A stretch of DNA of 64,000 nucleotides from positions 4,771 through 68,770 of the forward strand of contig JACQAZ010000015.1 of NCBI GenBank assembly GCA_016194705.1. The letters run 5' to 3'. Shown here piece after piece: positions 5,698 to 33,241 of the stretch. A program made the position numbers and the translations under genes. Every line of letters starts with the position of its first letter. The first letter of the stretch is position 1. The notes beneath the pieces were generated by a model. It was not told the origin of the DNA. It saw only the letters and a list, made by a program, of their open reading frames with translations, and made no database searches. Source of the DNA: Elusimicrobiota bacterium. Lineage in GTDB: Bacteria; Elusimicrobiota; Elusimicrobia; UBA1565; UBA9628.

Positions 5698-5719
5698 AGC
5701 CCCGCCGCTTGGCGGGGCT
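5698..5719. terminator. Candidate bidirectional intrinsic terminator hairpin
   Basis: AGCCCCGCC-GCTT-GGCGGGGCT perfect 9-bp stem between convergent genes (4796..5680 + and 5759..6025 -). The T-tract is weak. Confidence 0.4.
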
Positions 5720-5758
5720 CTCCTCTCGAGTGAAGAAAGGTCTTTGGCTGTTTGCGGC

Positions 5759-6025
5759 CTATTTCGAGATGCTCAACGGCGGAGCCTGGCTGGTCGAGGC
5801 CGTCCCTGAACCGCCGCCCCCGCCGCCCCCCGTATTCGAGTTGGCGACGCACGTGTTGCCCACCTGGTGCGTGCCTTGTCCGCAAGTCAAGGTCGAAGTG
5901 TTCGTGCCGGGAGCAGGCTGGCTTCCGCCGCCGCAGCCGCCGCCGCTGCCGCCCCCGCAAGCCAACGTCCCCGCCAGGGCGAACGCGAACCACACGGCCG
6001 TCGCCTTAAGAATATTCTTTTTCAT
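5759..6025 (-). CDS. Small secreted Gly/Cys-rich protein, paralog A (C-x9-C GTHQ motif)
   Basis: Start taken at MKKNILK, preceded by a strong SD (AGGAGGAGG). Signal/lipoprotein-like N-terminus ending LAGTLAC. Contains the motif CGQGTHQVGNTCVAN. Its upstream region is homologous to that of paralog B. Confidence 0.6.
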   Translation of the reverse strand: MKKNILKATAVWFAFALAGTLACGGGSGGGCGGGSQPAPGTNTSTLTCGQGTHQVGNTCVANSNTGGGGGGGSGTASTSQAPPLSISK

Positions 6026-6146
6026 TGCCTCCTCCTCACTCGACATAGTTTACGGCCGTGGACCCATCCTGTCAATAGGAAACTCTGAATTTTATTGAAG
6101 TTTTACCAAAAGCGGCAAATCCACGAATTCCCCAGTAAAATACTTG

Positions 6147-10097: not shown

Positions 10098-12005
10098 ATG
10101 GCCTTGTCCCCCCCCGTGCGCGCGATGAGCTACACCGTGGTCCACCGCACCCGCCTCGACACCGCCTCCTGCGAGACGCAGGGGCTCGTGCGCGTGCCCT
10201 TCGAGCAGGGCCTCTTCAAGACCACGGCGGCCTCGGCGACGCTCCAGTCGGGCGTCATCGAGACGCCGGCCCCGTTCGACGACCTCGTCGGCTCGTGGAA
10301 CGCGAAGATCCCCCCGCTGGCCGGGCTCAAGATGCAGGCCCGCGTGCTCGTGGGCTCCGAATGGTCGGGATGGTTCGACTTGGCCGCGGTGGGCAAGGAC
10401 GGCTTCGAGTCGGTCGAGAAGCAGGAGAACGATTTCGGCTTCGTCGACGTCGACACCCTCAAGCTCAAGAAGCCCGCCAAGGCCTTCCGCTATCGCTTCC
10501 TGCTCTCGGCGCCCTCCCGGGCCGTCGTGCTCCGCCTGGCCGCCATGACGGTCTCCAACGCCGAGGTCCCGGACTTGGCCCCTTTCCAGCCGGGGCCGTG
10601 GGTGACCGAGCTCAAGGCGCGCCCGCGCTCGCAGACTGTCGAGCAGGAGAAATACAAGCACGACATCTGCAGCCCGACCTCGCTGTCGATGGTCCTCGAG
10701 TTCTGGGGCGACCGCCTGCCGACCGTCGAGGTCGCGGAAAGAGTCCGCGATCAGAAGACCGCCATCTTCGGGCATTGGCCCTTCAACGCGGCCGTCGCGG
10801 GCGACCTCGGCCTCGAGTCCTACGTCGCCCGGCTCGACGGCATGGAGGACCTTCAGGAAGAAATCGCCCAAGGCCGCCCCGTCGTGGTGAGCCTGACCTA
10901 CGGCGAGGGCGAACTCAAGGGCTCGCCGATCAAGAAGACCAAGGGCCATCTCCTCGTGGTCGCCGGCTTCGACTTCAAGGGCGACGTCATCGCGCTCGAC
11001 CCGGCCGCGCCGCCCGACTCCGTGCGCCGCGTCTACGACCGCAAGGAGTTCTGGAGCGCCTGGCGTCTCAAGAAGCGGGGCCTGGCTTATCTGGTCGGCC
11101 CCTTGAAGGGGCGCAAGCTGACCGTCGGCGTGCCGGTCATGGACTTGATGGCCAAGGCCCGCCAGCGCAAGAAGGTCGAGCTCGACGACCCGGAGCACCT
11201 CTCGCAGCTGCTCTACGGCGAACGCGTGACCGTGACCGCGGTCAAGGCCGGCTGGGTCCACGTTCTCGCCGACGAGCAGCTCGACTTCTTCGAGGACGAC
11301 AAGTGGGAGGGCTACCCCGGCTGGATCGACGCCGACTCCTTGATGTTCGATCCCCCGCCCAAGCCCAACGTGCTCGTGCGCACCAAGCAGGCCCTCGTCC
11401 AGCGCGGCAGCGACATGATGCTGCTCTCGGTCGGCACCCGCCTGCTGCGCGTCTCGCAGGACAAGGACGTCTCCACCCTGCGCCTCCTCGACGGCACGAC
11501 CGCCGAGATCGCCTCCGACGCGCTCACGAGCCCGCCCGAGCAGGTCAGCGACGAGAGCCGCGCGATGATCATCAAGACCTCCGAGCTCTTCCTGGGGACC
11601 TCGTACTACTGGGGCGGACGCTCGGGCGTCGAGCCCGACCTCTCGGTGGGCGTCGACTGCTCGGGCCTGGTCAGCCTCTCCTACCGCATGCACGGCATGG
11701 ACATCCCGCGCGACTCGCACGAGCAGAAGCTCAAGGCCAAGCCCATCGACAGCAAGGACATGAAGCCCGCCGACCTCGTGTTCCTGACGGAGCCCGGCGA
11801 CAACAAGCGCATCACGCATGTGATGATCTTCACGGGCGGCGACGGCGTCATCGAGAGCCGCAAGTCCTCGGGGCGCGTGCTGCGCTCGTCCTTCAAGGAA
11901 CGCTTCGGCAAGACGCTCCTCGAGATCAAGTCCGGCGACGAGGTTACCGACCTCTCCTTCTCCCGCCCCAAGAAGCGGCTGATCTACTTCGGCAGCTACT
12001 TCTAA
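10098..12005 (+). CDS. Multidomain peptidoglycan hydrolase: peptidase C39-like + SH3-like + C-terminal NlpC/P60
   Basis: C39-like segment KHDICSPTSLSMVLEFWGD. C-terminal NlpC/P60 signature GVDCSGLVSLSYRMHGMDIPRDSHEQ…ITHVMIF (Cys and His). Start taken at the ATG at 10098, after the upstream terminator. Confidence 0.8.
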   Translation: MALSPPVRAMSYTVVHRTRLDTASCETQGLVRVPFEQGLFKTTAASATLQSGVIETPAPFDDLVGSWNAKIPPLAGLKMQARVLVGSEWSGWFDLAAVGKDGFESVEKQENDFGFVDVDTLKLKKPAKAFRYRFLLSAPSRAVVLRLAAMTVSNAEVPDLAPFQPGPWVTELKARPRSQTVEQEKYKHDICSPTSLSMVLEFWGDRLPTVEVAERVRDQKTAIFGHWPFNAAVAGDLGLESYVARLDGMEDLQEEIAQGRPVVVSLTYGEGELKGSPIKKTKGHLLVVAGFDFKGDVIALDPAAPPDSVRRVYDRKEFWSAWRLKKRGLAYLVGPLKGRKLTVGVPVMDLMAKARQRKKVELDDPEHLSQLLYGERVTVTAVKAGWVHVLADEQLDFFEDDKWEGYPGWIDADSLMFDPPPKPNVLVRTKQALVQRGSDMMLLSVGTRLLRVSQDKDVSTLRLLDGTTAEIASDALTSPPEQVSDESRAMIIKTSELFLGTSYYWGGRSGVEPDLSVGVDCSGLVSLSYRMHGMDIPRDSHEQKLKAKPIDSKDMKPADLVFLTEPGDNKRITHVMIFTGGDGVIESRKSSGRVLRSSFKERFGKTLLEIKSGDEVTDLSFSRPKKRLIYFGSYF

Positions 12006-12667
12006 AGCGCCGAGCCGCGTCCAGCCGGGAGAGGTTTGCCGAATCCTCGGAATATCCAGCCTCGCGCCAACATCTTGGCTCCCGCGTTCTCCCGCGTGAC
12101 ATACCATTCGTCGCGCGAGGCTTCCACGACATCGTAGCTCCCATCCACGGCGACGGCACTGACGAGAGCGATGTGCGTGACCCAGCCGTTCTGGCTGTGG
12201 CTCATGAAGACGACATCCCCCGGCTCCGGCGGGCCTTTCATGTCGAGGCAGCCGTTGAACTTGCAATATGAGTAGAGATTGCGCGCGCGCCGATCAAAGA
12301 ACGGATCCCCGGGCCGGCCATCGCGCTTCCCATAGTGTTCGGGGTGCTTCTTGTAGTCAGCCTCCAGCAGACGTCTGATGGATGTTCCCGAATTGCGATA
12401 GGCAATGGTCGGTACATCCATGCAAACGATTAAGCCCATCCGACCGCCGATGTTGTTCAAGTAACCCTGAAAAGGGTCGTACCATAGGCCGATGAGCTTC
12501 CGCGCTTCGACCACGACGCGGCCGCGGTCCACGGAGCCGTCCCAGCTCGCTGGCTCCTCTGTGGGGCCATGGTAGGAATGAGCCCGCGCGGTCAGGACAA
12601 GTGCAAACCCAGTGCCGACGAGGATCAGCGATAGGACCGCGATCGAAATGGCGATGAATCGTTTCAT
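12002..12667 (-). CDS. DUF1287-family (NlpC/P60-like) secreted protein
   Basis: Signal peptide MKRFIAISIAVLSLILVGTGFALVLTARA. Conserved CMDVP…AYRN and HIALV segments. GC content is lower than in neighbouring genes. Confidence 0.6.
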   Translation of the reverse strand: MKRFIAISIAVLSLILVGTGFALVLTARAHSYHGPTEEPASWDGSVDRGRVVVEARKLIGLWYDPFQGYLNNIGGRMGLIVCMDVPTIAYRNSGTSIRRLLEADYKKHPEHYGKRDGRPGDPFFDRRARNLYSYCKFNGCLDMKGPPEPGDVVFMSHSQNGWVTHIALVSAVAVDGSYDVVEASRDEWYVTRENAGAKMLARGWIFRGFGKPLPAGRGSAL

Positions 12668-12690
12668 TCTATGTCTCTATCTTGATCGCC

Positions 12691-13035
12691 TCAAGTTCTT
12701 ACTTCCTTGACGGCCCTTTGAATCCGAGGCAGCTGGCTCTTGCGCGCGAGAATTGGAACGAACTCGAGCTTCAGGGCGTATGCGATCTTCACGAGCGTCT
12801 CGACCGTCAGGTTTTGGTTGGCCGTCTCGATGCGCGAGATGACGGTCTGCGTCGTCCCAATTCTTCGAGCGAGCTGGCCCTGGGTCAGACGCGCGCGCGC
12901 GCGCGCACGATTTATCTGCAATGAAAGGTTGATCGCCACGTCGGCCTCTGCGGCCAACAGTTTCCCCCGTGCGGTCTTGGGCGGCGGGAAGACCACATCG
13001 AGAGGGACTCCACCCTTGATCCATTTCATGCTCAT
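12691..13035 (-). CDS. XRE-family HTH antitoxin (HigA-like)
   Basis: HTH segment LTQGQLARRIGTTQTVISRIE. Start MSMKW overlaps the toxin stop by 4 nt (ATGA). Confidence 0.8.
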   Translation of the reverse strand: MSMKWIKGGVPLDVVFPPPKTARGKLLAAEADVAINLSLQINRARARARLTQGQLARRIGTTQTVISRIETANQNLTVETLVKIAYALKLEFVPILARKSQLPRIQRAVKEVRT

Positions 13036-13364
13036 ATTTCCTCCCACCCCTGTCGACGGATGAACTCGGCCATATTCTTGCGCGACCGTTCGATCTCTTG
13101 ATCCGGGACCTCTCGCGATTTCTTCAAGAACGAGAACAGGAAGCGGTGCTGGTGATGCTCTATCGCCACTCGAAGCTCCCACACCCCGTCACGCAGATAC
13201 TTCCCATAATTCACCGGCAGTCTCGGTCCCATTCGGGCCAGAAGCCGGAACCAGTCTCCCGCTTTGTCGCGATGATCCTGCTTCATCGCTTTGGAATAAT
13301 CACATGGCTGGCATCTCCCGTGAGCCGTGCGGTAGAAATGGATCCTGAACCTATAGCCGCTCAT
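13032..13364 (-). CDS. Gp49-like (DUF891) RelE/HigB-superfamily toxin
   Basis: 110 aa. N-terminal YRFRIHFY and the DGVWELRV…HQHRFLFSF core are typical of Gp49-like toxins, which usually pair with an XRE antitoxin. A palindromic operator lies immediately upstream. Confidence 0.7.
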   Translation of the reverse strand: MSGYRFRIHFYRTAHGRCQPCDYSKAMKQDHRDKAGDWFRLLARMGPRLPVNYGKYLRDGVWELRVAIEHHQHRFLFSFLKKSREVPDQEIERSRKNMAEFIRRQGWEEI

Positions 13365-13392
13365 AGTATAGCCTATACGCTATGTTTGTCAA
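13362..13392 (-). promoter_or_regulatory. Toxin-antitoxin operator/promoter
   Basis: Imperfect palindrome CATAGTATAGCCTATACGCTATG (13362-13384) overlapping a -10-like TATACT. TTGACA sits 16 nt upstream on the minus strand. The exact TSS and start-codon relationship is unclear. Confidence 0.5.
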
Positions 13393-13501
13393 GACCCCTC
13401 CGTGAAACCCCATAAAGAGTATACGAGCGAGCCCCCCAAAAAGTTCCCTTTCCCCAATACGGCTGTAACCAGGCGCGGGCAAAATAAGTAGAATAAGGCC
13501 G

Positions 13502-15373
13502 ATGCTCACCGCTCTTCTGGTCATCGCGCTCTCACCCGCCCACGCGGCCTTCCCGGCCGTGGAGCGCTCGACGGCGGCCATCGCGGTCGTCTACCCGACC
13601 GAAGGCGAGGTCCTGCCGATGATGGAGGGCGAGTTCGTCCTGGGCTCGGTCTCCGACCCGAAGGCCCCCTTCAGCATCAACGGCGCCAGCGTGACGGTGC
13701 ACCCGGACGGAGCTTATCTCGCCTGGCTCGCCCTCAAGCCCGGGACCTTCACGATCCACTGCGAGCTGGCCCTGAAGGAAGGCGCGGTCGGCTACACCCG
13801 CACGATCGTCATCACCCCGCCGCCGGCGCCGCTGCCCGACAAGCCGCTGGCCATCGACAAGGACTCCATTTTTCCCAAAGCCGACCTGGAGCTGCGCGCC
13901 GGCGACTGGCTCATCGCGAAGCTCAAGTCCTCGCCGGGCGCCAAGGTCAAATACCGCCTCCCGAAGAAATCTTGGCAGCCCATGGCCGAGGTCAATCCGG
14001 CGCTGGGGCTCTACGAGGGCGTCTACCAGGTCCAGCCCGGCGACGAGATGTCTCCAGCGCAGATCGAGTTCCAAGCGGGATCCGGCTGGTCGGCCATCTC
14101 GGCCAAGAGCCAGGGCAAGGCCGCCTTTCTCTCGGGAGCCCCTCCGATCGCTGTGGTCAAGGGCAACGGCGCAGCCCGCCTCAAGACCGGTCCGGGGGAG
14201 GGCGAGCTCTTCCCCGGCGCCAACGGCATGCGCTTCATCGTCGCCGGCCGCTTGGGCTCGGAGGTCAAGCTCCAGCTCCCTAACGGCGAGGCCGCCTGGC
14301 TCGAGGCGAAATACCTCGAGTTCCAGCCTCAGGGGACGGCGCCGCCGCGGGCGGCCACCGACGTCATCTCCGTCAAGGCGGGCGACAACTCGACCGTCGT
14401 GCACATCGGGCTGACCGATCGCGTGCCCTTCCGCGTCGACGAGGCCGAGGACGGCCGCTCGCTGACGGTGAGGATCTACTACGCCTGGGCGCACACCAAC
14501 TGGGTCGTCTACGCCGACGAGGACCCGCTCGTGCAGGAGGTGCGCTTCAAGCAGGAGAACGCCGACACCGTGGCGGTCACGGTCCGCCTGAAGCCCGACC
14601 AGAATCTCTGGGGCTACCACGCCTCTTATGAAGGAAGCGCCGTCCGCCTCGAGCTGCGCCGCGCCCCGCGCCTGGCTCCGGCCCCGGCGTCCGCGCTCGA
14701 GGGCGTCGCGATCTTCGTCGACCCCGGCCACATGCCCTCCGCTCCGGGCGCGATCGGACCGCTGGGCACTCGCGAGATGGACGTCAATTACGCCATCGCC
14801 AAGGCGCTCGAGGAGAAGCTGACCAAGCAGGGCGCCAAGGTCTTCATGAGCCGCAAGAACCCCGAGGACGAGGTCGGCCTGCCGGAGAGGCCGCGACAAG
14901 CCTGGGAGAAGCGAGCGGACCTCTTCATCAGCGTGCACAACAACTTCATGGGCGACGGCTCCAATCCCTTCAAGGGACCGCCCCACGGCTCTTCGGTCTT
15001 CTACTATCATCCGCACAGCCTCGCTTTGGCCCGCGCTGTCTACCAGGCCTACGACGGCCGCGTGCCCCTGCCCGGCGAGGCCCTGCGCTTCGGCGACCTC
15101 TTGGTAGCGCGCATGACCGAGATGCCCGCGATCCTCACCGAGTCGGCTTATCTGCTCTTCCCGGAGCAGGAGGCCCTGCTGCTCGACGCCCGGTTCCGCG
15201 ACAAGATCGCCTCTGCGATCGCCGTCGGAACGAGGAGATTCCTCGAGACCGAACGCCAGCACCAGGGAGTCAAGCCCGCCAAGAGGGCGGCGCCCCCGGC
15301 GGCGACGGCGCCCGCTCCGGCGCCGCCCAAGCCGCGCAAGGGCAAACGCAGGAAGAAGGAAATCCCGGCGTGA
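13502..15373 (+). CDS. N-acetylmuramoyl-L-alanine amidase (Amidase_3, AmiC-like) with N-terminal accessory domains
   Basis: Signal peptide. Catalytic-domain motifs IFVDPGHMPSAPGA, DLFISVHNN and AILTESAYL. Confidence 0.85.
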   Translation: MLTALLVIALSPAHAAFPAVERSTAAIAVVYPTEGEVLPMMEGEFVLGSVSDPKAPFSINGASVTVHPDGAYLAWLALKPGTFTIHCELALKEGAVGYTRTIVITPPPAPLPDKPLAIDKDSIFPKADLELRAGDWLIAKLKSSPGAKVKYRLPKKSWQPMAEVNPALGLYEGVYQVQPGDEMSPAQIEFQAGSGWSAISAKSQGKAAFLSGAPPIAVVKGNGAARLKTGPGEGELFPGANGMRFIVAGRLGSEVKLQLPNGEAAWLEAKYLEFQPQGTAPPRAATDVISVKAGDNSTVVHIGLTDRVPFRVDEAEDGRSLTVRIYYAWAHTNWVVYADEDPLVQEVRFKQENADTVAVTVRLKPDQNLWGYHASYEGSAVRLELRRAPRLAPAPASALEGVAIFVDPGHMPSAPGAIGPLGTREMDVNYAIAKALEEKLTKQGAKVFMSRKNPEDEVGLPERPRQAWEKRADLFISVHNNFMGDGSNPFKGPPHGSSVFYYHPHSLALARAVYQAYDGRVPLPGEALRFGDLLVARMTEMPAILTESAYLLFPEQEALLLDARFRDKIASAIAVGTRRFLETERQHQGVKPAKRAAPPAATAPAPAPPKPRKGKRRKKEIPA

Positions 15374-16248
15374 AGAGCCACGCCGACGTCTACCTCGCCT
15401 CCCTCTACGACGTCATCGAGCTGCACGCGCAGGCCAAGGAGCCCGACGAGGACAAGGTCTGGAGCCGCGTGACCGACAAGCTCAGCGCCGCTCTGGGGGC
15501 CGAGGCGGCGACCTACTACGTCTATCTGGCCAGCAAGCGCCAGCTCCTCCCGACCTACGCGATGGGTCCGCGCGCCGCGGACCTCAAGGGGACCCCCGTC
15601 GACATCCGCACCGGGCTGTGCGGCTGGGTGGCGAGCTACCGCGAGCCGCTGCTCGTCGACGACGCCTATCAGGACGAGCGCTTTCTCCAGGAAGTCGACA
15701 AGGTCACGGGGTTCCACACCAAGACCGTGCTGGCCATCCCGCTCTTCGACCGCCTCGAGCTGACCGGGGTCATCCAGCTCATCAACAAGCGCTCGGGAGT
15801 CTTCACGCGCGATGATCTGCGCTTCGTGAGCTCGGTCAGCACGCTCACCGCCGTCGCCCTGCGCGCCCTCGCGCTCGAGACCACGGTCGACAAGGTCACG
15901 GCCCGCAACGCCTCGATCCTCGAGAACCTCGGCGGCGGCTTCATGGCCATCGACGCGCACGGCCGCGTCATGCTCTGCAACCCGGCGGCCAAGCGCATCT
16001 TGTCGCTGGCCGTCGAGGTGCCCCACAACATCCCGGTCGACCAGGCTCTGGCGCACATCCCCCGCCTGTCCGACATCCTTCTCGACACGCTGTCCACGCA
16101 CAAGATCGCCAAGCGCCAGGAGCTGACCTGGACTCATCAGGGCGAGACCAAGATCATCGGCTACGGGACCCTGCTGATCCAAGACACGCAAGGCTCGGTC
16201 ACGGGCGCCGGGATCACTTTCCAAGACATCACTCACGTCAAGAAGTAG
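15370..16248 (+). CDS. GAF + PAS domain sensor protein
   Basis: 292 aa. 4-nt overlap (GTGA) with the amidase stop. GAF-like N-terminal half and PAS-like C-terminal half. Confidence 0.7.
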   Translation: MKSHADVYLASLYDVIELHAQAKEPDEDKVWSRVTDKLSAALGAEAATYYVYLASKRQLLPTYAMGPRAADLKGTPVDIRTGLCGWVASYREPLLVDDAYQDERFLQEVDKVTGFHTKTVLAIPLFDRLELTGVIQLINKRSGVFTRDDLRFVSSVSTLTAVALRALALETTVDKVTARNASILENLGGGFMAIDAHGRVMLCNPAAKRILSLAVEVPHNIPVDQALAHIPRLSDILLDTLSTHKIAKRQELTWTHQGETKIIGYGTLLIQDTQGSVTGAGITFQDITHVKK

Positions 16249-33231: not shown

Positions 33232-33241
33232 GAGCGGAGCT

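What the first reader, a model, noticed from the sequence alone, without database searches (positions are those of the whole stretch)
10098..15373. Cell-wall remodelling neighbourhood with an inserted lower-GC Gp49/XRE toxin-antitoxin pair and DUF1287 gene
A C39-SH3-NlpC/P60 hydrolase, a DUF1287 (NlpC/P60-like) protein and an AmiC-type amidase flank a Gp49-like toxin / XRE antitoxin pair. The TA genes and the DUF1287 gene are visibly less GC-rich than their surroundings, and the TA pair has a palindromic operator (CATAGTATAGCCTATACGCTATG), pointing to horizontal acquisition into a peptidoglycan-hydrolase locus. The combination of an N-terminal C39-like papain-fold domain with a C-terminal NlpC/P60 in one protein is uncommon.
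Basis: partly seen in the sequence, partly recalled or inferred. Interest (0 to 1): 0.55.

Follow-up and report, generated by a model that had tools for sequence, protein, structure and literature searches.

The report
Decaying toxin-antitoxin islet between cell-wall genes
A 1.4-kb piece of foreign, lower-GC DNA has landed in the short gap between two conserved cell-wall enzyme genes of an Elusimicrobiota bacterium; it carries a toxin-antitoxin pair whose toxin has lost a core strand, plus an exported cell-wall-hydrolase-like gene, and this is ordinary genome flux rather than a new system.

Summary
Pfam confirms all five genes. They are a C39_2/SH3/NlpC-P60 hydrolase, a DUF1287 protein, an XRE regulator, a Gp49 toxin and an Amidase_3 amidase.

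The three middle genes are compositional outliers. Their GC3 is 0.68-0.73, against 0.889 ± 0.034 for 12 homology-verified neighbours (z -4.6 to -6.3). They lie in the lowest-GC 1.4-kb stretch of the 64-kb window.

The insertion reading is supported:
- Eight relatives (46-79% identical hydrolase) keep the same gene order from ferredoxin through hydrolase to amidase.
- None carries the three genes.
- Five have only a 57-160 bp spacer, including the closest relative (57 bp).
- Three carry unrelated genes at the same spot.
- The insert is about 12006-13442.

The palindrome is a conserved operator, ATAGC-N6-GCTAT, inside a TTGACA-16-TATAMT promoter. The block is invariant in five independent copies of the module.

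- The toxin has a unique in-frame 11-residue deletion, absent from 46 of 46 homologues. It removes strand β5 of the HigB/RelE sheet, so the toxin is probably dead.
- DUF1287 is not part of the TA module (0 of 32 other loci). It is a common Elusimicrobiota gene with an NlpC/P60 fold.
- The hydrolase architecture is standard in this phylum, with at least 379 homologue clusters.

Verdict: an ordinary small acquired islet. Low interest.

The parts
10098..12005 (+). Ancestral two-domain cysteine-peptidase hydrolase: an N-terminal region, Peptidase_C39_2, SH3b-like, then YkfC-like NlpC/P60. It forms the left flank of the insertion.
   Evidence: Pfam. PDB 3H41 aligns to residues 369-590. C191/H284 and C521/H574 are invariant in 21 homologues. 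At least 379 homologue clusters exist, and the 120 best listed are full-length and carry both peptidase domains. Synteny is kept in 8 relatives.
12006..13442 (.). Inserted segment of about 1,437 bp and GC 0.583. It starts directly after the hydrolase stop codon and ends where similarity to the ancestral spacer of relatives resumes.
   Evidence: The spacer alignment with L016 and L017 places the right boundary. This is the lowest-GC 1.4-kb stretch in the window. It is absent from 8 of 8 relatives. No flanking direct or inverted repeats were found. No integrase is among the three insert genes, and the only tRNA in the window is about 20 kb away.
12002..12667 (-). DUF1287 gene (221 aa). It encodes a membrane-anchored or exported NlpC/P60-fold cysteine hydrolase that appears intact.
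12691..13035 (-). XRE/HigA-type helix-turn-helix antitoxin (114 aa). It is intact and has a 16-residue C-terminal extension compared with partner antitoxins.
   Evidence: Pfam HTH_3. Alignment with the four partner antitoxin genes, representing three distinct homologous modules. Its start overlaps the toxin stop (ATGA). PDB hits are HipB and HigA antitoxins.
13032..13364 (-). Gp49/HigB-family toxin gene (110 aa) with a 33-bp in-frame deletion. The junction is at about 13130/13131, between codons S78 and F79.
   Evidence: Alignments A1 and of all 47 homologues. The family profile matches HigB 6AF3 at E 2.8e-11. Strand assignment and active residues come from PMC7984235. Homologue DNA has a near-repeat flanking the deleted 33 bp.
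13365..13392 (-). Toxin-antitoxin promoter with an embedded operator. The -35 is TTGACA (13392-13387). The inverted repeat is ATAGC (13383-13379), 6 nt, GCTAT (13372-13368). The -10 is TATACT (13370-13365) and abuts the ATG.
   Evidence: The promoter scan gives 11/12 matches. The block is invariant in five independent modules.
13443..13501 (+). Retained ancestral hydrolase-amidase spacer (59 bp). It holds a conserved GGCAAAATAAGTAGAATA motif, which is a likely amidase promoter.
   Evidence: Alignment A4 with L016 and L017. The promoter role is an inference.
13502..15373 (+). Ancestral Amidase_3 N-acetylmuramoyl-L-alanine amidase. It forms the right flank of the insertion.
   Evidence: Pfam Amidase_3, 2e-32. 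It is 45-76% identical in relatives. In the 5 relatives with an empty spacer it lies directly after the hydrolase.

Best explanation
**Ancestral state.** In this Elusimicrobiota lineage the dual cysteine-peptidase hydrolase and an Amidase_3 amidase are adjacent, about 60 bp apart. They lie in a conserved block: ferredoxin, hydrolase, amidase, GAF/PAS.

**The insertion.** In the window's lineage about 1.44 kb of lower-GC DNA (12006-13442) entered between the hydrolase stop codon and that spacer. The amidase kept its own upstream sequence.

**What the insert carries.**
- A HigBA-type type II toxin-antitoxin module. The toxin gene comes first and the XRE antitoxin overlaps it by 4 bp. The module is driven by a sigma-70-type promoter. 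Its operator (ATAGC-N6-GCTAT) is presumably bound by the antitoxin for autorepression.
- A separately originating DUF1287 gene. It encodes an exported NlpC/P60-fold cysteine hydrolase.

**State of the toxin.** The toxin later suffered a 33-bp in-frame deletion between short near-repeats. The deletion removed strand β5 of the RelE/HigB sheet, which carries the active site. The toxin is therefore most likely non-toxic. The module is then a decaying remnant in which the repressor and DUF1287 stay intact.

**Shown:** gene identities, atypical composition, absence from relatives, the insert boundaries, operator conservation, the deletion and its uniqueness, and the DUF1287 fold.

**Inferred:** loss of toxicity, antitoxin binding to the operator, the deletion mechanism, and the enzymatic roles.
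For: **Composition.** GC3 z-scores are -4.6 to -6.3 and codon usage is atypical. The insert is the GC minimum of the window.

**Empty or different site in 8 of 8 relatives.**
- L016 (79% identical hydrolase): 57-bp spacer.
- L048 (64%): 62 bp.
- L049 (61%): 146 bp.
- L003 and L004 (46%): about 70 bp and about 160 bp.
- L017: YcxB-like, Lnt and a 200-aa gene.
- L001: a 211-aa protein with a signal-peptide-like N-terminus and no Pfam hit.
- L002: a membrane protein, a methyltransferase and a pyrophosphatase.
- tblastn finds none of the three insert genes in any of the six relative loci searched. L048 and L049 were judged from their called gene lists, which leave no room for the insert.

**Boundary.** Spacer alignment A4.

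**TA module.**
- Pfam Gp49 and HTH_3.
- 47 homologues, and every pair examined has the order toxin then XRE with a short start/stop overlap.
- Promoter and operator are invariant in 5 modules.
- The profile hits HigB 6AF3.
- Distant relatives sit on mobilizable plasmids and phage satellites, annotated RelE/ParE plus HTH.

**Deletion.**. It maps to β5 (residues 84-91), and the active residues lie on this antiparallel sheet; in sequence they flank the deleted segment (R68, R73 before it, F90, K92 just after it).

**DUF1287 is independent of the TA pair.** 0 of 29 metagenome loci and 0 of 3 long contigs have a Gp49, XRE, hydrolase or amidase neighbour.

**Assembly is real.** Two independent contigs are 100% identical across both junctions.
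Against: - No integrase, target-site duplication, terminal repeat or nearby tRNA was found, so the insertion mechanism is unknown.
- The closest relative available is only 79% identical. The age of the insertion and its polarity among close kin are therefore untested.
- Loss of toxicity is inferred from an alignment to one solved homologue. The AF2 model of the deleted toxin has low confidence (pLDDT 46.8). No intact control could be run, and the alignment had only 13 sequences, so that result is inconclusive.
- F90 and K92 equivalents are retained in the sequence.
- The -10 box abuts the start codon, so it is unclear how the toxin's conserved N-terminus is transcribed from this promoter.
- It cannot be told whether the TA pair and DUF1287 arrived together or in two events.
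Confidence: 0.8

Rival explanations
1. The TA module is still a working addiction or defence module. Under this reading the 110-residue toxin is a functional short variant despite the deletion.
For: The reading frame is kept. The residues equivalent to R68, R73, F90 and K92 of 6AF3 HigB remain in the sequence. The promoter, operator and antitoxin are intact.
Against: The deleted residues include V-T-N-A, which are at least 90% conserved, and they form nearly all of β5. 46 of 46 other homologues keep them. Pfam matches only profile positions 4-61 of 90. The AF2 model has low confidence (weak evidence).
Confidence: 0.17
2. Gp49, XRE and DUF1287 form one functional three-gene unit. This could be a tripartite system, or a TA-derived repressor co-opted to control an exported cell-wall hydrolase.
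For: All three genes lie on the same strand. The XRE-DUF1287 gap is 23 bp with no terminator between them. Their GC3 values are similar.
Against: The association does not recur. It is absent from all 32 other DUF1287 loci. It is also absent from the 4 other TA modules whose neighbourhoods were read. A weak promoter-like site (9/12) lies just upstream of DUF1287.
Confidence: 0.1
3. The arrangement is ancestral and relatives lost it, or it is an assembly chimera.
For: Only 8 relatives were sampled, and the nearest is 79% identical. The source is a metagenome-assembled genome.
Against: An ancestral arrangement would need at least 5 independent clean losses that leave the same about 60-bp spacer. 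The strongly atypical composition also argues against it. Two independent assemblies span both junctions at 100% identity.
Confidence: 0.03

Closest known systems
HigBA type II toxin-antitoxin systems of the Gp49/PF05973 branch of the RelE/ParE superfamily. The nearest solved example is Streptococcus pneumoniae HigBA, PDB 6AF3/6AF4.
   Same: The toxin gene precedes and overlaps an XRE-HTH antitoxin gene. An inverted-repeat operator lies in the promoter. The family profile matches HigB 6AF3 over 111 positions (E 2.8e-11), and the antitoxin weakly matches HigA 6AF3_B.
   Different: This copy lacks the β4-β5 loop and most of β5. It belongs to a distinct environmental subfamily with conserved CQACDY and HHQHRF motifs. 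That subfamily is 55-66% identical to the window toxin and about 27-35% identical to plasmid and phage copies.
DUF1287 (PF06940; E. coli YijF), within the NlpC/P60-CHAP-amidase group of papain-like enzymes.
   Different: No biochemical function is known for any member. This copy is compositionally foreign to its genome, whereas homologues in L007 and L009 have near-host GC3 (0.85 and 0.92).
YkfC / dipeptidyl-peptidase VI type γ-D-glutamyl-L-diamino-acid endopeptidases (PDB 3H41, 3NPF, 3PVQ).
   Same: The C-terminal half of the flanking hydrolase aligns to the SH3b + NlpC/P60 part of 3H41 (E 9e-20). Its Cys and His are invariant.
   Different: The window protein also has an N-terminal region of about 170 residues and a second, apparently active papain-like domain (Peptidase_C39_2, C191/H284). 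This fusion was seen here only in Elusimicrobiota.

Membership tests
HigBA-type type II TA (Gp49/PF05973 toxin + XRE antitoxin) | Toxin matches the family profile above the curated cutoff | tested here: met
   PF05973 scores 29.6 bits against a cutoff of 23.9, but only profile positions 4-61 of 90 match. The family profile hits HigB 6AF3 at E 2.8e-11.
HigBA-type type II TA (Gp49/PF05973 toxin + XRE antitoxin) | Toxin gene upstream of, and translationally coupled to, an HTH-XRE antitoxin gene | tested here: met
   ATGA overlap at 13032-13035. The same order is seen in every homologous pair examined.
HigBA-type type II TA (Gp49/PF05973 toxin + XRE antitoxin) | Inverted-repeat operator in the promoter | tested here: met
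   TTGACA-N3-ATAGC-N6-GCTATAMT is invariant in 5 independent modules. Binding by the antitoxin was not testable.
HigBA-type type II TA (Gp49/PF05973 toxin + XRE antitoxin) | Complete RelE/HigB core (β1-β5 sheet that carries the active site) | tested here: not met
   An 11-residue deletion removes the β4-β5 loop and most of β5. It is unique among 47 homologues.
HigBA-type type II TA (Gp49/PF05973 toxin + XRE antitoxin) | Toxicity neutralised by the antitoxin; ribosome-dependent mRNA cleavage | not testable with these tools
   Needs expression assays.
DUF1287 / NlpC-P60-like papain-fold hydrolases | Profile match, papain-like α+β fold, catalytic Cys and His | tested here: met
DUF1287 / NlpC-P60-like papain-fold hydrolases | Peptidoglycan-cleaving activity | not testable with these tools
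   No member has been characterised (PMC10318531).
NlpC/P60 YkfC-like endopeptidase (flanking hydrolase, C-terminal half) | SH3b domain packed on an NlpC/P60 domain with a Cys/His dyad | tested here: met
   NLPC_P60 2.3e-17. 3H41 aligns across both domains. C521 and H574 are invariant. The Pfam SH3 hits alone are below cutoff.
Peptidase_C39_2 (flanking hydrolase, middle domain) | Profile match with conserved catalytic Cys and His | tested here: met
   PF13529 scores 70.2 bits against a cutoff of 24. C191 and H284 are invariant in 21 homologues.
AmiC-type cell-division amidase | Amidase_3 catalytic domain plus an N-terminal AMIN targeting domain; AmiC equivalog score | tested here: inconclusive
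   Amidase_3 is met (113 bits). AMIN scores 17.8 bits, below the 20.5 cutoff. NCBIfam AmiC scores 60 bits against a cutoff of 700. The protein is best called an Amidase_3-family amidase.
Integrative genomic island / mobile element | Integrase or transposase, flanking direct repeats, tRNA or att target | tested here: not met
   No flanking repeats. The nearest tRNA is at 33241. The three insert genes are a DUF1287 protein, an XRE regulator and a Gp49 toxin, so no recombinase gene is present.

The most novel reading that the evidence does not exclude
The hydrolase-amidase spacer may be a recurrent, recombinase-independent landing site in Elusimicrobiota. Four of nine lineages carry different cargo exactly there. 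In this lineage the surviving XRE repressor of a dead TA module may have been co-opted to control the adjacent exported DUF1287 hydrolase. That would link a TA-derived regulator to cell-wall remodelling.
Probability: 0.08. Interest if true: 0.4.

Novelty: new member of a known kind. Interest (0 to 1): 0.2.

Why it matters
The finding matters mainly for annotation. It shows that a pair labelled 'TA' in this metagenome-assembled genome is probably a remnant with a structurally crippled toxin. It also shows that the DUF1287 gene is acquired cargo, not part of the native cell-wall operon.

There are three side benefits:
- A conserved promoter/operator signature (TTGACA-N3-ATAGC-N6-GCTATAMT) for an environmental HigB/Gp49 subfamily.
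- Evidence that the C39_2-SH3-NlpC/P60 hydrolase and its amidase neighbour form a phylum-wide conserved pair in Elusimicrobiota. That pair would be a sensible target for study of peptidoglycan turnover in this poorly known phylum.
- A natural β5-deletion allele that could serve as a negative control in HigB studies.

None of this changes current understanding.

Tried and rejected
- **Greedy longest-ORF background.** In this 66% GC genome it picked long shadow ORFs and gave a meaningless GC3 background (mean 0.80). I replaced it with 12 homology- or Pfam-verified genes.
- **Flanking repeats, tRNA and Rfam.** No insertion signature and no RNA element was found.
- **Viral contigs searched with the toxin family.** No relative was found. 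Curated phage and plasmid sets hold only distant (27-35%) relatives. No vector could be named.
- **PADLOC and PHROGs.** Only generic HTH hits and one phage family of unknown function. There is no link to a defence system.
- **AF2 of the deleted toxin.** pLDDT was 46.8.
- **DUF1287 arriving with its own conserved promoter.** L019 and L020 share an upstream motif, but the alignment to the window is not convincing. I dropped the idea.
- **DUF1287 3' end truncated at the junction.** Its stop overlaps the hydrolase stop. However, C-terminal tails vary naturally by up to about 20 residues, so there is no evidence of truncation.
- **Tripartite TA idea.** Rejected, because the triad was not seen in any of the 32 other DUF1287 loci or the 4 other TA modules examined.


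Full report
**1. What is there**

The interval holds five genes:
- A 635-residue hydrolase at 10098-12005 (+). It has Peptidase_C39_2 (E 3.6e-19) and NLPC_P60 (E 2.3e-17) domains. The SH3 hits between them are below Pfam's cutoff.
- A 221-residue DUF1287 protein at 12667-12002 (-).
- A 114-residue XRE helix-turn-helix protein at 13035-12691 (-).
- A 110-residue Gp49-family protein at 13364-13032 (-). Its stop overlaps the XRE start (ATGA).
- A 623-residue Amidase_3 amidase at 13502-15373 (+).

The C-terminal half of the hydrolase aligns over SH3b plus NlpC/P60 with the YkfC-like structure 3H41 (E 9e-20). In 21 homologues both catalytic dyads are invariant: C191/H284 in the C39_2 domain and C521/H574 in the NlpC/P60 domain. 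'AmiC-type' is only loosely right. The AMIN hit is below cutoff, and the NCBIfam AmiC model scores 60 bits against a cutoff of 700.

**2. Composition**

Twelve neighbouring genes were verified by homologues in relatives or by Pfam. Their mean GC3 is 0.889 (sd 0.034, minimum 0.835).

| Gene | GC3 | z-score | Binomial p |
|---|---|---|---|
| DUF1287 | 0.734 | -4.6 | 2e-12 |
| XRE | 0.730 | -4.7 | 2e-7 |
| Gp49 | 0.676 | -6.3 | 8e-11 |

Their synonymous-codon likelihood under the neighbours' usage is also well outside the neighbours' range. A sliding window the size of the insert shows that 12006-13441 (GC 0.583) is the lowest-GC stretch in all 64 kb. My first attempt at a background set used the longest ORFs. 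It was contaminated by shadow ORFs and I discarded it.

**3. Source and relatives**

The DUF1287 and hydrolase proteins are identical to proteins of an Elusimicrobia metagenome-assembled genome on a 186-kb contig. Two independent Logan assemblies (SRR12113410 and SRR12113409) are 100% identical to window 11858-13753 and 11704-13597. Both span both junctions of the insert. The arrangement is therefore not an assembly chimera.

**4. Is it an insertion?**

Eight relatives with 46-79% identical hydrolases all keep the order ferredoxin, hydrolase, amidase, with the outer-membrane-protein gene upstream wherever the contig reaches that far. Seven of the eight also keep the GAF/PAS gene after the amidase; L049 does not. 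The six relative loci searched by tblastn have no match to DUF1287, XRE or Gp49. L048 and L049 were not searched that way, but their called gene lists leave only 62 and 146 bp between hydrolase and amidase.

| Relative | Hydrolase identity | Between hydrolase and amidase |
|---|---|---|
| L016 | 79% | 57 bp, empty |
| L017 | 78% | YcxB-like gene, Lnt, 200-aa gene |
| L048 | 64% | 62 bp, empty |
| L049 | 61% | 146 bp, empty |
| L001 | 57% | 211-aa protein with a signal-peptide-like N-terminus, no Pfam hit |
| L002 | 56% | membrane protein, methyltransferase, inorganic pyrophosphatase |
| L003 | 46% | about 70 bp, empty |
| L004 | 46% | about 160 bp, empty |

Aligning the sequence upstream of the amidase with L016 and L017 shows that the ancestral spacer survives in the window as 13443-13501. 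It includes a conserved GGCAAAATAAGTAGAATA motif. The insert is therefore about 12006-13442 and starts right after the hydrolase stop codon.

I found no flanking direct or inverted repeats. None of the three insert genes is a recombinase, and the only tRNA in the window is about 20 kb away. The mechanism of entry is unknown.

**5. The toxin-antitoxin module**

The toxin has 47 homologues, mostly 118-121 residues long and 55-66% identical. In four further genomic contexts read here (L010/L011, L012/L013, L014/L015, L050/L051) the toxin gene is always followed by an XRE gene of 97-102 residues. The overlap is 4 bp in most pairs, and a DUF1287 gene is never nearby.

The upstream regions of all five modules share an invariant block: TTGACA, 3 nt, ATAGC, 6 nt, GCTATA(A/C)T. 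Sequence further upstream is not conserved. In the window this is the 11/12 promoter match at 13392-13365.

The family profile matches the solved HigB toxin of Streptococcus pneumoniae (6AF3, E 2.8e-11), and the antitoxin weakly matches its HigA partner. Distant relatives (27-35% identity) lie on mobilizable plasmids of Firmicutes and on streptococcal phage satellites. There they are annotated as RelE/ParE toxin plus HTH regulator. None was found in the viral-contig collection.

**6. The toxin is damaged**

The window toxin lacks 11 residues (FWKDIVVVTNA) that are present in every one of 46 other homologues. Among them V, T, N and A are at least 90% conserved. The only other sequence with the gap is the database copy of this same gene.

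In the HMM alignment to 6AF3 the missing segment corresponds to residues 78/79-89. The paper's numbering (PMC7984235) gives β4 as 72-78 and β5 as 84-91. It names R68, R73, F90 and K92 as the residues shown by mutation to matter, and places the active site on this antiparallel sheet. The deletion therefore removes the β4-β5 loop and almost all of β5.

At the DNA level, homologues carry the near-repeat TTC TGG AAG ... TTT (T/C)TG AAG 33 bp apart. The window has a single TTC TTG AAG. That fits a slippage deletion.

I infer, but have not shown, that the toxin no longer folds or cleaves. An AF2 model of the deleted protein is of low confidence (pLDDT 46.8). With 13 sequences and no intact control, this adds little.

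The antitoxin is intact and carries a 16-residue C-terminal extension.

**7. DUF1287**

- The protein has 91 homologues, most 60-78% identical. All those that carry an organism name come from Elusimicrobia genomes.
- In three long contigs and 29 metagenome loci it sits in unrelated contexts. None has a Gp49, XRE, hydrolase or amidase neighbour. It is therefore not a component of the TA module, and it is not native to the cell-wall locus.
- In two other genomes its GC3 is close to that of its neighbours (0.85 and 0.92). The low value in the window thus reflects recent arrival, not a property of the family. Several of the closest homologues lie on 52-62% GC contigs, which suggests a lower-GC Elusimicrobiota donor.
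- The literature places DUF1287 in the NlpC/P60-CHAP-amidase group with function unknown (PMC10318531).

**8. The 'uncommon' architecture**

The same review describes C39_2 proteins as single-domain, so the fusion is unusual for that family. The search nevertheless returned at least 379 homologue clusters. The 120 best listed are full-length (94-100% query coverage), carry both peptidase domains, and are attributed to Elusimicrobiota wherever they carry an organism name. Together with the conserved synteny, this shows the protein is a standard orthologue of the phylum and not a peculiarity of this locus.

Its constant pairing with an amidase suggests a division of labour. The amidase would free stem peptides and the YkfC-like domain would cut γ-D-Glu-diamino acid bonds. 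This is inferred from what is known of YkfC-type enzymes and was not tested here.

**9. Rivals**

- **A still-active short toxin** is possible (about 0.17). The frame and the flanking catalytic residues are kept.
- **A functional three-gene unit** is unlikely (about 0.1). The triad does not recur, although the three genes share a strand and no terminator separates them.
- **Ancestral presence with repeated loss, or a chimera,** is very unlikely (about 0.03).

**10. Unexplained**

In the window, L010, L014 and L050 the -10 box abuts the ATG. A normal start site would therefore fall inside codons 2-3. Yet the N-terminal 26 residues are conserved as protein. In L012 the ATG is 8 nt downstream of the -10, which would fit a leaderless mRNA. 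I could not resolve this.

**11. Verdict**

This is a small acquired islet. It holds a HigBA-type module in decay plus an NlpC/P60-like gene, and it sits in a spacer between two conserved cell-wall genes that is repeatedly rearranged. It is a new member of known kinds, and interest is low (0.2).

Noticed in passing
window 13365-13392; L010 4970-5003; L014 4785-4817; L050 2970-3003; L012 4965-5003: In four of five homologous TA modules the -10 hexamer directly abuts the toxin ATG, so a normal start site would fall inside the ORF. Yet the N-terminal 26 residues are conserved as protein. In L012 the ATG lies 8 nt after the -10, which fits a leaderless mRNA.
   Followed up: partly
window 13443-13501: The retained ancestral spacer has a GGCAAAATAAGTAGAATA motif conserved with L016 and L017. 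TAGAAT is followed 7 nt later by the amidase ATG. This suggests a leaderless or very short-leader amidase transcript with its own promoter.
   Followed up: partly
protein P0224 (homologue of window 10098-12005): One homologue (1082 aa) is the same hydrolase fused to Mur-ligase domains (PF01225, PF08245, PF02875). This hints at a role in peptidoglycan-peptide recycling. It could also be a merged gene call.
   Followed up: no
window 15370-15373 and 15370-16248: The amidase stop overlaps the start of a GAF-PAS protein gene (ATGA). This amidase then GAF/PAS adjacency is kept in seven of eight relatives and suggests a sensory protein coupled to the amidase.
   Followed up: no
window 5709-6098 (+): A 129-residue ORF has GC3 0.715, well below its neighbours. 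It has no Pfam or NCBIfam hit. It is either a second compositional outlier in the window or not a real gene.
   Followed up: partly
window 12666-12740: The XRE protein has a 16-residue C-terminal tail that partner antitoxins lack. Its TGA stop lies inside a weak promoter-like TTGAGG-17-TAGAAT (9/12) that abuts the DUF1287 ATG. This may mark a junction between two separately acquired pieces.
   Followed up: partly
L012 4333-8964 (JGI 3300037515, 50% GC): This is a dense run of toxin-antitoxin genes within 4.5 kb: PhdYeFM/ParE, the Gp49/XRE homologue, and a HigB-like toxin. It shows that this TA subfamily travels in TA-rich islands elsewhere.
   Followed up: no
L017 6535-8004 and 9925-12766; L001 11991-12626; L002 6147-8100: Relatives carry different cargo at or next to the same spacer. 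L017 has a PBP4-like Peptidase_S13 before the hydrolase, and YcxB-like, Lnt and a 200-aa gene after it. L001 has a 211-aa protein with a signal-peptide-like N-terminus. L002 has a membrane protein, a methyltransferase and a pyrophosphatase. The hydrolase-amidase junction is a recurrent break point in gene order.
   Followed up: partly
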